NCBI RefSeq assembly: GCF_003790525.1
Contig: NZ_CP033635.1
Strand: one strand, 5' to 3'
DNA length: 64,000 nt
Source: Escherichia coli
Lineage (GTDB): Bacteria; Pseudomonadota; Gammaproteobacteria; Enterobacterales; Enterobacteriaceae
The notes beneath the pieces are model-generated. The model searched no databases and was not told the origin of the DNA. It saw nothing but the letters and a program-made list of their open reading frames with translations. Shown here one piece after another: positions 19,992 to 21,662 of the stretch (position 1 is the stretch's first letter; every line of letters begins with the position of its first letter). A program made the translations under genes and the position numbers.

Positions 19992-21662
19992 TCACCGTAT
20001 TCTCTGAAACAGGCCCCAAATCGTCCCAATGATATTATTCACTGTCATGTTAGTTGTGCATAACATCCATGTACCAAGCATAGGATCGCCAAATAAAAAG
20101 CGGATATCTGTAAGTTTATCCGATGACGACGACACAATAACGGCCTGTCTGATACTATACCCGGGTATTTCACGGGTATTTGTTACCTCATGATTTCGTT
20201 CTATGATCCCCAGAACATAAGACCCCACGGAATAAACACTTCCGACGCTCGCTGGCTGCCCCGGCTGTCCCTGCGGACCTGCCGGGCCGCGTTCACCTGT
20301 ATACCCTCTTGGCCCCTGCGGACCTGCCGGGCCGCGTTCACCTGTATCCCCCTTTAGTCCCTGTGGACCTGCCGGACCGCGTTCACCTGTATCGCCCTTT
20401 GGTCCCTGTGGACCACGCTCCCCCTGGGCTCCCAGCTCTTTCCATTCAGACCAGGGGCCATTACCGGTAAAATTACCAGTAACAGTTCTTACGAACTTTC
20501 GTGGTGGGTTCCAGGTTGTATATTCATGCTGGCAATATCCCCATGCACCAACTCTTACCTGAAGATAACCCGCTCTCTGAATCGGATAATTATTTTCTCG
20601 TGTAGCCCTACTGTCTGATGGCTGATAATAATCACCCTGATCGGTCACTCGTCCCAGTCGGTTCAGATCACCATTCAGCAGTTGTCCACGGGATGACTCT
20701 CCTCTTGGTCCCTGTGGACCTGCCGGACCGCGTTCACCTGTATCGCCCTTTGGTCCCTGTGGACCTGCCGGGCCACGTTCACCTGTATCGCCCTTTGGTC
20801 CCTGTGGACCTGCCGGGCCGCGTTCACCTGTTTCACCTTTTGGTCCCTGTGGACCTCCCGGATCTCCTTTATCCCCCTTAGGGCCTTTTTCTCCTCGCTC
20901 ACCCTTTTCTCCCTTCAGACCCTGAGGGCCTTCCGGACCACGTGCACCTGTTTCGCCCTTTGCTCCCTGTGGACCTGCCGGGCCGCGTTCACCTGTTTCA
21001 CCTTTTGCTCCCTGTGGACCTTCCGGACCACGTGCACCTGTTTCGCCCTTTAGTCCCTGTGGACCTGCCGGGCCGCGTTCACCTGTATCGCCCTTTGGTC
21101 CCTGTGGACCTGCCGGACCGCGTTCACCTGTTTCACCTTTTGGTCCCTGTGGTCCTGCCGGGCCACGTGCTCCTGTTTCACCTTTTGGCCCCTGTGGCCC
21201 GGTAATGCCTCTTTCACCACGAGCGCCGGTATCCCCTTTCTCTCCTCGTGGTCCCCGGGCAGATGCAGCTCGTTTCCGGGCTTCCTCCGCCTCAGATGCC
21301 GCGGACTCTGCTCTGTGCAGTATGGACTGCACCACAGCCTCCAGCTCTGACAACGCCTTCGGATAATAAGGAGCATCTTCCAGCTCCATCAGAAATTTAT
21401 TCAGTGTTCCCGGTGAAGAATCCTCCCTGACCACGATATCTCCCACATACGAAGGACGGTAACCTTCTGTATTGAGTGTCACCCTGTATATTCCTGGCTC
21501 CACATCCATACTGTAACTCCCCGTCTCTTCCGGCATGCCATAAGCCACTGTCGTGGCGATGACTGTCTCGCTGGTTCTCTTCGCTTTCAGCTCAATAATG
21601 CATCCCGGTACCGGTTTTCCGGTTCCGTCCCTCAGCACGCCTGAAATTTTTACAGCCGCCAT
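19992..21662 (-). CDS. side tail fibre protein (Stf-like) with collagen-like Gly-X-Y repeats
   Basis: N-terminus MAAVKISGVLRDGTGKPVPGCIIELKAKR matches lambda Stf N-terminus; long GPQGPKGETGERGPA repeats. Confidence 0.85.
   Translation of the reverse strand: MAAVKISGVLRDGTGKPVPGCIIELKAKRTSETVIATTVAYGMPEETGSYSMDVEPGIYRVTLNTEGYRPSYVGDIVVREDSSPGTLNKFLMELEDAPYYPKALSELEAVVQSILHRAESAASEAEEARKRAASARGPRGEKGDTGARGERGITGPQGPKGETGARGPAGPQGPKGETGERGPAGPQGPKGDTGERGPAGPQGLKGETGARGPEGPQGAKGETGERGPAGPQGAKGETGARGPEGPQGLKGEKGERGEKGPKGDKGDPGGPQGPKGETGERGPAGPQGPKGDTGERGPAGPQGPKGDTGERGPAGPQGPRGESSRGQLLNGDLNRLGRVTDQGDYYQPSDSRATRENNYPIQRAGYLQVRVGAWGYCQHEYTTWNPPRKFVRTVTGNFTGNGPWSEWKELGAQGERGPQGPKGDTGERGPAGPQGLKGDTGERGPAGPQGPRGYTGERGPAGPQGQPGQPASVGSVYSVGSYVLGIIERNHEVTNTREIPGYSIRQAVIVSSSSDKLTDIRFLFGDPMLGTWMLCTTNMTVNNIIGTIWGLFQRIR
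20270..21250. repeat. collagen-like 9/18/27-bp periodic repeats within stf
   Basis: Repeated cctgtggacctgccgggccgcgttcacctgt-type units on plus strand. Confidence 0.8.

What the first reader, a model, noticed from the sequence alone, without database searches (positions are those of the whole stretch)
19992..21662. Side tail fibre with extensive collagen-like Gly-X-Y tracts
Stf carries two long (GPxGxKGxTGxRGPA)n regions encoded by highly repetitive DNA. These are recombination-prone and often differ between otherwise identical prophages, which may alter fibre length or host range. The antisense strand produces artefactual Pro/Val/Leu-rich ORFs (20618-20881, 20942-21205).
Basis: seen in the sequence. 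Interest (0 to 1): 0.35.

Follow-up and report, generated by a model that had tools for sequence, protein, structure and literature searches.

The report
Collagen-like side tail fibre of lambdoid prophage
This is an intact gene for a phage side tail fibre whose shaft is a bacterial "collagen" built from 45-bp DNA repeats; it belongs to a class already described in E. coli prophages, and related copies differ mainly in how many repeats they carry and in whether a small knob domain sits in the shaft.

Summary
Window 19992-21662 (minus strand) is one intact 556-aa ORF with 82 Gly-X-Y triplets in two regions. The first has 44 + 18 triplets split by one extra Gly; the second has 20. Both are encoded by 45-bp tandem repeats with the unit GPQ-GPK-GET-GER-GPA.

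The "side tail fibre" reading is supported. Residues 3-92 match the solved Ur-lambda Stf collar domain (E 5.5e-30). The gene follows J in a complete lambda-like tail module and precedes a DUF4376 fibre-chaperone gene.

It has the R-pyocin "knob" fold. The last 86 aa have no detectable relatives outside this E. coli prophage group, apart from a weak match to P-EibA ORF-401.

Seventeen further intact alleles were inspected, which with the window's own give 11 distinct lengths. They carry 44-124 triplets (441-676 aa) and their indels are multiples of 45 bp. Two loci are 100% identical except for one 45-bp unit. Three alleles lack the knob.

The antisense ORFs exist and are by-products of the repeat.

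This is a domain combination within the prophage collagen-like fibre class described by Ghosh et al. 2012, closest to their EPclC type. It is ordinary and of modest interest.

The parts
19992..21662 (-). stf: intact 556-aa collagen-like side tail fibre gene
   Evidence: ORF list. Pfam PF08400 + PF01391. PHROG 366 tail fiber, E 3.5e-113.
21387..21662 (-). Residues 1-92: Stf N-terminal collar domain, which attaches the fibre to the tail at the V/M junction
   Evidence: phmmer against PDB 9E7M/9MGH (Ur-lambda Stf collar), E 5.5e-30 over residues 3-92. Role taken from PMC12617516.
21255..21386 (-). Residues 93-136: linker plus short Ala/Glu-rich helical segment, probably a trimeric coiled-coil nucleus
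   Evidence: Still inside the PF08400 match, residues 3-133. By analogy to Ur-lambda Stf, whose linker is 92-101 and coiled coil starts at 102. Inferred, not tested.
20859..21254 (-). Collagen tract A1: 44 Gly-X-Y triplets (residues 137-268), ending in a Lys/Glu-rich divergent unit
   Evidence: TRF period 45.
20856..20858 (-). Extra Gly codon (residue 269) forming the conserved G-x-P-G-G-P-x-G interruption, a probable kink in the shaft
   Evidence: Present in every allele inspected except the short P0007. The motif is described for this protein class in PMC3368898.
20694..20855 (-). Collagen tract A2: 18 triplets (residues 270-323)
20433..20693 (-). Residues 324-410: knob domain with the R-pyocin fibre knob fold
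   Evidence: AlphaFold model with pLDDT 83. Top three Foldseek PDB hits are R2/R1 pyocin fibres 6CL6/6CL5/6CT8, E ~1e-4, TMq 0.65-0.70. Conserved motif across 10 phage fibres. 115 phage records hit by tblastn.
20253..20432 (-). Collagen tract B: 20 triplets (residues 411-470)
   Evidence: TRF period 45 x 3.3 copies.
19995..20252 (-). Residues 471-556: C-terminal tip domain, putative receptor-binding and trimerisation module, with almost no detectable relatives
   Evidence: No Pfam hit, no meaningful PDB hit (best E 1.5), no phage tblastn hit. Exhaustive phmmer over 1.84 billion representatives found only its own cluster. Weak collinear match to the P-EibA ORF-401 C-terminus. Structure model unusable, pLDDT 43.
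19402..19977 (-). 191-aa DUF4376 protein, starting 14 nt after the stf stop: probable tail-fibre chaperone
   Evidence: PF14301, E 2e-20. 57% identical to P-EibA ORF-191A. DUF4376 proteins are the fibre chaperones of Alteromonas phages V22 and A5 (PMC10579305).
20618..20881 (+). Antisense shadow ORF (87 aa), an artefact of the repeat
20942..21205 (+). Antisense shadow ORF (87 aa), an artefact of the repeat
20708..20765 (.). 58-nt exact direct repeat, copy 1 (in tract A2). The partner copy is at 20357-20414 in tract B, 351 nt (117 codons) away, so the two copies flank the knob.
20357..20414 (.). 58-nt exact direct repeat, copy 2 (in tract B)
21683..21702 (-). Terminator-like GC hairpin plus T-run between the J stop and the stf start, followed by GGAG and ATG
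   Evidence: Consensus match only.
21721..25626 (-). J (central tail fibre, 1301 aa) immediately upstream; genomic context
   Evidence: Six J-specific Pfam domains.

Best explanation
The gene encodes the side tail fibre (Stf) of a lambda-like prophage. It has a collagen triple helix in place of lambda's long alpha-helical shaft.

**Proposed mechanism**
- Three chains form one fibre.
[quoted passage not shown] This would give four fibres per virion.
- A short helical segment (about residues 100-136) starts the trimer.
- Next comes about 54 nm of collagen helix (62 triplets) with one Gly-insertion kink.
- An 87-aa trimeric pyocin-type knob follows.
- A further 17 nm or so of collagen (20 triplets) comes after the knob.
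- An 86-aa tip domain ends the fibre. It probably binds the cell-surface receptor and helps register the three chains.
- The downstream DUF4376 protein most likely acts as the fibre's folding chaperone or cap.

**Repeat variation**
- The shaft is encoded by 45-bp (15-codon) repeats. Slippage or unequal recombination therefore adds or removes whole 15-residue units (about 4.3 nm each) in frame.
- This produces alleles of different reach.
- It also allows in-frame loss or gain of the knob.

**What is shown and what is inferred**
- Shown here: domain identities, gene context and allelic variation.
- Inferred: trimerisation, collar formation, lengths in nm, receptor binding by the tip, and chaperone function.
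For: **Gene and repeats**
- Intact ORF.
- 82 Gly-X-Y triplets.
- PF01391 E 4.3e-41 and PF08400 E 2.4e-39.
- Period-45 tandem repeats.

**Fibre identity and context**
- Residues 3-92 match the Ur-lambda Stf collar domain in PDB 9E7M/9MGH, E 5.5e-30.
- The collar, linker and trimer architecture comes from PMC12617516.
- The prophage has lambda-type V, H, M, L, K, I and J genes.

**Collagen composition**
- The X/Y composition is X: Pro 46%, Asp+Glu 37%; Y: Arg+Lys 44%, Gln 20%, Thr 17%.
- Together with the GxPGGPxG interruption, this matches the E. coli prophage collagen-like proteins. Recombinant members of that class were shown to be trimeric and triple-helical (PMC3368898).

**Knob**
- The knob model has pLDDT 83.
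- Its top hits are R1/R2 pyocin fibre knobs.
- Knob roles in trimer folding and saccharide binding are described in PMC6116203.

**Chaperone**
- DUF4376 proteins are the fibre chaperones of phages V22 and A5.
- The same stf / 191-aa ORF / Eib order is found in prophage P-EibA.

**Alleles**
- Lengths range from 441 to 676 aa, with 44-124 triplets and indels in 45-bp multiples.
- L002 and L004 are identical except for one 45-bp unit.
- L003, L014 and L023 lack the knob.
- The exact 556-aa sequence is absent from 15 billion proteins, whereas the neighbouring DUF4376 protein is found exactly on 462 contigs.
Against: - Nothing here shows expression, trimer formation or presence on virions.
- The C-terminal domain could not be modelled (pLDDT 43). 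It has no informative homologue, so its role as receptor binder is positional inference only.
- A terminator-like hairpin lies between J and stf. It could limit expression unless late antitermination reads through it.
- The chaperone is not of the lambda Tfa type, and its role is taken from distant Alteromonas phage homologues.
- The repeat number in this particular window could be an assembly error. The exact allele is seen nowhere else.
Confidence: 0.85

Rival explanations
1. The gene is a decaying remnant of a defective prophage. It is intact by chance or only recently, and it makes no functional fibre.
For: - Related loci are often damaged. IS66, IS1 or IS21 elements lie next to or inside stf in L003, L004, L015, L024, L027 and L028, and truncated collagen ORFs occur in L027 and L029.
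- A terminator-like hairpin precedes stf.
Against: - The ORF is full length, and its start and stop match those of the 17 other intact alleles.
- All length changes are in frame.
- The non-collagen domains are almost invariant between alleles, which suggests purifying selection.
- The surrounding head and tail module is complete, with TerL, major capsid protein, V, H, M, L, K, I and J.
Confidence: 0.1
2. It is a bacterial cell-surface collagen-like adhesin of the Scl/Lcl type carried as phage cargo. On this reading it acts on eukaryotic hosts rather than as a virion fibre.
For: - NCBIfam gives sub-threshold matches to SclA, Lcl and SclB (E 2e-57 to 8.5e-48).
- The neighbouring gene is a YadA/Eib-type surface adhesin.
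Against: - All three NCBIfam scores are far below their cut-offs (196 vs 400, 171 vs 500, 163 vs 325 bits), and the matches cover only the Gly-X-Y part.
- The N-terminus is the Stf collar domain, not a signal peptide.
- There is no LPXTG motif or other anchor.
- The gene position and the chaperone partner are those of a tail fibre.
Confidence: 0.03
3. The repeat count, and therefore the 556-aa length, is an assembly artefact: a collapse or expansion of 45-bp units. The true allele would be one of the common forms, for example 601 aa.
For: - The exact protein is absent from a 15-billion-protein collection.
- Compared with the closest loci, the window differs by clean 90-bp or 135-bp gaps.
- Database copies of these genes are often partial, because contigs break inside them.
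Against: - Closed genomes show real variation of the same kind.
- The units are only 76-90% alike, and the longest exact repeat is 58 nt. Ordinary reads can therefore mostly place them.
- The window also differs from its relatives by 21-27 point substitutions, so it is an independent allele in any case.
Confidence: 0.12

Closest known systems
EHEC prophage collagen-like proteins (EPclA-D), especially the EPclC type such as ORF-401 of prophage P-EibA (Ghosh et al. 2012, PMC3368898)
   Same: - PfN (PF08400) N-terminal domain.
- Only a short helical segment in place of the long PCoil.
- Two collagen regions, the first carrying the conserved GxPGGPxG interruption.
- The same X/Y residue preferences.
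- A C-terminus that is not PfC.
- The same gene order: J, stf, a 191-aa DUF4376 ORF, an Eib-type adhesin, and a small sigma-like ORF.
- 67% identity to ORF-401 over residues 4-238 by tblastn, and 47% overall.
   Different: - ORF-401 has a Pf2-type 'GVVQLSS...TPKAV' repeat between its two collagen regions. This protein has a pyocin-type knob there.
- The C-terminal domains are only 26% identical (E 0.003).
- The collagen here is longer: 187 + 60 aa against 117 + 75 aa.
- There is no lom gene between J and stf.
Bacteriophage Ur-lambda side tail fibre Stf (PDB 9E7M/9MGH; PMC12617516)
   Same: - Homologous N-terminal collar domain (E 5.5e-30).
- The same position in the tail gene module.
- Presumably the same four-trimer collar arrangement.
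   Different: - Lambda's shaft is an alpha-helical coiled coil with a hinge, and its distal part resembles T4 gp37 and binds OmpC.
- Here the shaft is collagen, and the tip is an unrelated 86-aa domain.
- The assembly partner is a DUF4376 protein. No Caudo_TAP (lambda Tfa-type) domain was found in it.
R-type pyocin fibre knob domains (PDB 6CL5/6CL6; PMC6116203) and knob-bearing phage lateral fibres
   Same: - The fold of residues 324-410 (Foldseek prob 1.00, TMq 0.65-0.70).
- The conserved DLN...YYQ...NYP...AG.L.V...W..W motif.
   Different: - Sequence identity is only about 23%.
- Here there is a single knob embedded between two collagen helices. In pyocins there are tandem knobs between a rod and a beta-shaft.
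- A 71%-identical knob occurs in E. coli fibres flanked by Pf2 repeats rather than collagen (P0001 and P0002).
Alteromonas phage V22 gp26/gp27 and A5 gp8/gp9 fibre-chaperone pairs (PMC10579305)
   Same: A knob-bearing fibre followed by a DUF4376 chaperone gene.
   Different: Those fibres have no collagen and carry a lectin-like head. The relationship of the chaperones rests on the Pfam domain only.

Membership tests
Lambda-type side tail fibre (Stf) | N-terminal collar domain homologous to lambda Stf residues 1-94 (PF08400) | tested here: met
   PF08400 E 2.4e-39. PDB 9E7M/9MGH E 5.5e-30 over residues 3-92.
Lambda-type side tail fibre (Stf) | Encoded downstream of J in a lambda-like tail module that has the V and M proteins the collar binds | tested here: met
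   J at 21721-25626. I, K, L, M, H and V identified.
Lambda-type side tail fibre (Stf) | Followed by a dedicated fibre assembly or chaperone gene | tested here: met
   A DUF4376 ORF starts 14 nt downstream. It is a different chaperone family from lambda Tfa.
Lambda-type side tail fibre (Stf) | Distal part with Pf2 repeats (PF03406) and a gp37-like receptor-binding tip | tested here: not met
   No PF03406 hit or other Pfam hit beyond Collagen. The shaft and tip are of a different kind.
Lambda-type side tail fibre (Stf) | Trimeric fibre physically present on virions | not testable with these tools
   Needs EM or proteomics of induced particles.
Prophage collagen-like fibre proteins (EPclP; PF01391 collagen) | Long uninterrupted (Gly-X-Y)n scoring above the Pfam threshold | tested here: met
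   Runs of 44, 18 and 20 triplets. 138.9 bits against a cut-off of 27.2.
Prophage collagen-like fibre proteins (EPclP; PF01391 collagen) | Pro and Asp/Glu in X; Lys/Arg, Gln, Thr and Ala in Y; GxPGGPxG interruption in the first collagen region | tested here: met
   One search compared with Table 4 of PMC3368898. Motif at residue 266.
Prophage collagen-like fibre proteins (EPclP; PF01391 collagen) | Forms a stable triple helix | not testable with these tools
   Shown experimentally only for EPclA and EPclB.
EPclA/EPclB subtypes | C-terminal PfC domain (PF06820) and a long PCoil | tested here: not met
   No PF06820 hit, even at E <= 10. Only about 40 helical residues lie between the collar and the collagen.
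EPclC subtype (P-EibA ORF-401-like) | C-terminal domain homologous to that of ORF-401 | tested here: inconclusive
   26% identity, end-to-end collinear, E 0.003. 16 of 5000 shuffles reach the observed score. No diverse family could be gathered for a profile test.
Pyocin/phage fibre knob domain | Knob fold (five- to six-stranded antiparallel sheet with covering loops) | tested here: met
   Model with pLDDT 83 and six strands. 6CL6/6CL5/6CT8 are the top hits, E ~1e-4.
Pyocin/phage fibre knob domain | Saccharide or receptor binding by the knob | not testable with these tools
   Only suggested for other knobs.
Scl/Lcl bacterial collagen-like surface adhesins | Score above the NCBIfam cut-off, plus secretion signal and cell-wall or surface anchor | tested here: not met
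   196/171/163 bits against cut-offs of 400/500/325. The N-terminus is a phage collar domain.

The most novel reading that the evidence does not exclude
The collagen-coding 45-bp repeats may be more than a variable-length shaft. They may act as in-frame recombination 'linkers' that let the fibre gain, lose or swap internal and terminal modules without ever breaking the reading frame.

Features consistent with this:
- The knob is flanked by collagen tracts that share a 58-nt exact repeat placed 117 codons apart.
- Three natural alleles lack the knob.
- A 71%-identical knob occurs in non-collagen fibres.
- The equivalent position in P-EibA ORF-401 holds a Pf2 repeat.
- One allele (L020) carries a different collar domain.

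If knob presence and shaft length change receptor use or reach through O-antigen or capsule, this would be a simple built-in host-range diversification device. The otherwise unmatched 86-aa tip could then be a new receptor-binding fold.
Probability: 0.3. Interest if true: 0.45.

Novelty: new member of a known kind. Interest (0 to 1): 0.25.

Why it matters
Side tail fibres set how fast, and to which cells, a temperate phage adsorbs. They therefore affect how prophage-borne genes spread; here those include an Eib/YadA-type adhesin.

This locus adds little that is new in principle. It does give a clean natural allelic series for asking two questions: does shaft length matter for adsorption, and does an internal knob matter?
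- Collagen length ranges from 44 to 124 triplets.
- Changes come in steps of 15 residues.
- Alleles exist with and without the knob.
- The tip and the chaperone are nearly constant across the series.

There is also a practical point. Such genes are easily mis-assembled or mis-annotated. One intact knob-less allele is labelled a pseudogene in RefSeq.

Tried and rejected
**Searches and models that gave little or nothing**
- Megablast of the gene against 50,697 phage records found nothing. tblastn found only partial matches, mostly collagen.
- The word-indexed protein search returned only a handful of partial proteins for the knob, the C-terminal domain and the P-EibA C-terminus. I therefore could not build a profile for the tip domain.
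- The exhaustive HMMER search with the tip domain gave only its own cluster, plus two repeat proteins (P0008, P0009). I regard those two as spurious because they are multi-stretch, low-complexity matches.
- The AlphaFold model of the tip domain was unusable (pLDDT 43), so I ran no fold search on it.
- PDB sequence searches with the knob, the tip and the DUF4376 protein found nothing meaningful. The weak rhamnose-lectin matches at E ~1.5 are noise.

**Breakpoint analysis**
- I tried to locate the recombination breakpoints of the knob-less alleles.
- The repeats are too similar to each other to place the junction.
- The same problem prevents deciding whether the knob was deleted or inserted.

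**Readings rejected**
- A Scl/Lcl-type adhesin: the scores are below cut-off and the N-terminus is a phage collar domain.
- Real antisense genes: the open frames are explained by stop-codon depletion in the repeat.
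Full report

Yes. Window 19992-21662 on the minus strand is one uninterrupted ATG-initiated ORF of 556 aa. Its translation contains three perfect Gly-X-Y runs:
- residues 137-268 (44 triplets);
- residues 270-323 (18 triplets), separated from the first run by a single extra Gly at residue 269;
- residues 411-470 (20 triplets).

That is 82 triplets, or 246 aa, which is 44% of the protein. Gly is only 9% of the remaining sequence. Pfam's Collagen model scores 138.9 bits against a threshold of 27.2, E 4.3e-41.

At the DNA level, Tandem Repeats Finder reports period-45 arrays at 20705-21197 (11.3 copies, 76% matches) and 20267-20414 (3.3 copies, 90% matches).

The two antisense ORFs are at exactly the stated coordinates.

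**2. What is it?**

*Domains, from the N-terminus*

- **Residues 3-133** match PF08400, 'Prophage tail fibre N-terminal', E 2.4e-39.
- **Residues 3-92** match the 94-residue 'Tail fiber protein' chain of PDB 9E7M/9MGH at E 5.5e-30.
  - In that structure, twelve Stf N-domains form a collar at the gpV/gpM junction. Three linkers merge into each of four trimeric fibres.
- **The prophage here has the matching partners.** It encodes a lambda-type tail tube protein V, tape measure H, a 109-aa M, then L, K, I and a 1301-aa J. It also encodes a major capsid protein and a large terminase.
- **Spacing.** stf starts 58 nt after the J stop, behind a GGAG ribosome-binding site.
- **The downstream gene.** Fourteen nt after the stf stop begins a 191-aa DUF4376 protein. 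DUF4376 proteins are the tail-fibre chaperones of Alteromonas phages V22 and A5.

*The spacer between the collagen regions is a folded domain*

- Residues 324-410 have no Pfam or PDB sequence match.
- tblastn finds 30-45% identical segments inside the tail-fibre genes of 115 phages.
- An alignment of ten of these shows a conserved DLN..L...G.YYQ...A....NYP...AG.L.V...Y...R...W..W pattern.
- The AlphaFold model built on that alignment is confident (pLDDT 83).
- Its three best PDB matches are the R2 and R1 pyocin fibres 6CL6, 6CL5 and 6CT8, with E about 1e-4, probability 1.00 and TM-score 0.65-0.70.
- Pyocin knobs are trimeric nodes. They are thought to help trimer folding and, in some proteins, to bind saccharide.

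*The last 86 residues (471-556) are nearly without relatives*

- There is no Pfam hit at E <= 10 and no meaningful PDB hit.
- There is no tblastn hit in 50,697 phage records at E <= 1.
- An exhaustive phmmer search of 1.84 billion representatives returned only its own 50%-identity cluster, plus two spurious repeat proteins.
- The only lead is the C-terminus of ORF-401 of prophage P-EibA.
  - It shows 26% identity and is collinear from the end of the collagen to a shared terminal LFQRI.
  - The pairwise E-value is 0.003, and 16 of 5000 shuffles reach the observed score.
- The structure model was too poor to use (pLDDT 43).

**3. How it relates to what is known**

Ghosh et al. 2012 (PMC3368898) described the E. 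coli prophage collagen-like proteins EPclA-D.
- The proteins have a PfN (PF08400) domain, with or without a long coiled coil.
- They have one or two collagen domains, and different C-termini.
- Recombinant EPclA is a trimer with a genuine triple helix and a dumbbell shape with a hinged stalk.
- Collagen lengths vary between copies.
- Two-collagen proteins usually carry one G-x-P-G-G-P-x-G interruption.

The present protein fits this class closely.
- Its interruption is GDPGGPQG, at residue 266.
- Its positional composition is X: Pro 46%, Asp+Glu 37%, Ala 9%; Y: Arg+Lys 44%, Gln 20%, Thr 17%, Ala 12%, Pro 4%. This is close to their Table 4.
- Its N-terminal 238 residues are 67% identical to P-EibA ORF-401, their EPclC prototype.
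- The gene order is the same as in P-EibA: J, stf, a 191-aa ORF (57% identical), an Eib/YadA-type adhesin, and a small sigma-like ORF.

The differences are these.
- ORF-401 has a Pf2-type repeat between its collagen regions. This protein has a knob there.
- The tip domains are barely related.
- There is no lom gene between J and stf.

It is not EPclA or EPclB, because there is no PF06820 match. It is also not a Scl/Lcl-type adhesin. The NCBIfam scores are less than half their cut-offs and rest on the Gly-X-Y part only.

**4. Do alleles differ by repeat number?**

Only 23 of 5426 complete E. coli genomes have a megablast match, and only one covers at least 80% of the gene. I inspected the following.
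- Nine intact RefSeq loci.
- One protein-database allele (P0007).
- One allele truncated at its N-terminus by an IS element (L015).
- Ten loci that encode an exactly identical DUF4376 protein. Six of these carry a full-length fibre gene, one of which (L020) has a different collar domain. The other four have only remnants or no fibre gene.

Among intact alleles:
- Lengths are 441, 457, 529, 556 (this window), 577, 586, 589, 595, 601, 616 and 676 aa.
- Total triplets range from 44 to 124.

The indels fall in the collagen tracts.
- In DNA alignments of four alleles, the gaps are 45, 90 and 135 nt, plus one 9-nt gap at the end of tract B.
- In the other alleles, triplet counts differ in steps of five triplets. 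A one-triplet variant also occurs at the end of tract B.
- The non-collagen domains are almost invariant.

The cleanest case is L002 against L004. There are no mismatches in 1761 nt of stf, and identity is 100% over 665 nt upstream and 600 nt downstream, with one 45-nt indel in tract B.

The exact 556-aa protein is absent from a 15-billion-protein collection. The adjacent DUF4376 protein occurs exactly on 462 contigs. Part of that contrast may reflect contigs breaking inside the repeats, since many database copies are partial.

At 2.88 Å per residue (the value given):
- the window's shaft is about 54 + 17 nm;
- each 15-residue unit adds about 4.3 nm;
- the family spans roughly 38-107 nm of collagen (my arithmetic).

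**5. An extra finding: the knob is optional**

- Three alleles run collagen straight into the tip domain with no knob: L003 (577 aa), L014 (457 aa) and L023 (595 aa).
- L003 is annotated by PGAP as a C-terminally truncated pseudogene. Its reading frame is nevertheless open through to the normal C-terminus.
- In the window, the longest exact direct repeat in the gene is 58 nt. It links tract A2 (20708-20765) to tract B (20357-20414), 351 nt (117 codons) apart, so the two copies flank the knob.
- Recombination between the flanking collagen tracts would therefore remove or insert the knob in frame.
- I could not place the breakpoints or decide the direction, because the units are too similar to each other.
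- A 71%-identical knob also occurs in E. coli fibres flanked by Pf2 repeats instead of collagen (P0001 and P0002). The knob therefore behaves as a mobile module.

**6. The antisense ORFs**

- The 561-nt tract A has 2, 1 and 2 stop codons in the three antisense frames, and 2 in one of the two out-of-frame coding-strand frames. About 9 per frame would be expected; this is my estimate for equal codon frequencies.
- The two antisense ORFs share a fixed register with the stf codons and repeat every 15 residues (LVPVDLPGRVHLF...).
- They have no Shine-Dalgarno-like sequence upstream.
- Two coding-strand out-of-frame ORFs, 20675-20902 and 21050-21376, are by-products of the same kind.

**7. Mechanism and confidence**

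*Shown*
- Domain identities.
- Gene context.
- Repeat structure.
- Allelic variation.

*Inferred from homologues*
- Collar formation, giving four trimeric fibres per virion.
- The collagen triple helix.
- The Gly insertion acting as a kink or hinge.
- The knob acting as a trimer node and possible secondary binding site.
- The tip acting as receptor binder.
- DUF4376 acting as chaperone.

*Rival readings*
- A dead remnant, about 0.1.
- A surface adhesin, about 0.03.
- Mis-assembled repeat number, about 0.12. This would not change what the gene is.

**8. Verdict**

The gene is a further domain combination within a described class: collar, then collagen, then knob, then collagen, then a nearly unique tip. 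The repeat-number polymorphism and the optional knob are tidy but unsurprising for phage fibres. I score interest at 0.25 and classify it as a new member of a known kind.

Noticed in passing
window 17386-19002 (-), repeats at 17808-18364: This is a 538-aa YadA-anchor (Eib-like) trimeric autotransporter gene. It contains 5.6 near-perfect (98%) tandem copies of a 99-bp unit, which encode a 33-aa repeat ([33 protein letters not shown]). Only the C-terminal ~118 aa resemble EibA (57%). Homologues at related loci range from 369 to 601 aa, so this gene also looks variable in repeat number.
   Followed up: partly
window 21721-25626 (-), repeat at 22640-22965: J is 1301 aa, longer than at several related loci (annotated J genes of 3510-3717 nt). 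It carries a 174-bp unit repeated 1.9 times (91% matches) inside a coiled-coil-like segment (residues ~843-1016) between the Ig-like domains and the tail-tip fibre domain.
   Followed up: no
window 21683-21702 (-): A terminator-like hairpin (GGGCGCC-AGAAAT-GGCGCC followed by a T-run) sits in the 58-nt gap between J and stf. This prophage has no lom gene there. Related loci have either lom or two small hypothetical genes between J and stf.
   Followed up: partly
window 19363-19388: A strong 9-bp GC-rich hairpin (CCCCTCTGA...TCAGAGGGG) with a T-run on the + strand lies just downstream of the DUF4376 gene. The P-EibA record annotates a stem-loop between its ORF-191A and eibA genes.
   Followed up: no
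L003 (NZ_CP029741.1, E. coli AR_0085) 4001-5734: RefSeq/PGAP marks this stf as a pseudogene 'missing C-terminus'. The frame is in fact open for 577 aa and ends in the normal tip domain. It is a knob-less allele, and the label is probably an annotation artefact caused by the missing knob.
   Followed up: yes
L020 (GCA_900448525.1) 1956-3986: This 676-aa allele carries a different N-terminal collar domain (MAAVKISGVLKDGAGKPIQNCTIQLKAKRNSTTVLVNTVASENPDEAGRYSMDVE...). It resembles the Ur-lambda collar chain shown and is fused to the same shaft and tip. This is evidence of mosaic recombination inside the collar domain.
   Followed up: no
L001, L003, L004, L015, L022, L024, L027, L028: IS66-family elements (and IS1/IS21-like elements) are repeatedly inserted in or next to the stf / DUF4376 / Eib segment in different genomes, which suggests a hotspot for IS insertion.
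   Followed up: no
window 16869-17324 (-): A 151-aa protein with a Sigma-70 region 4 HTH is conserved immediately after the Eib-like gene at nearly all related loci. It is the counterpart by position of P-EibA ORF-156A. Its function is unknown.
   Followed up: no
window 20675-20902 (-) and 21050-21376 (-): Two out-of-frame ORFs (75 and 108 aa) lie on the coding strand inside stf. They are the same kind of repeat artefact as the antisense ORFs.
   Followed up: yes
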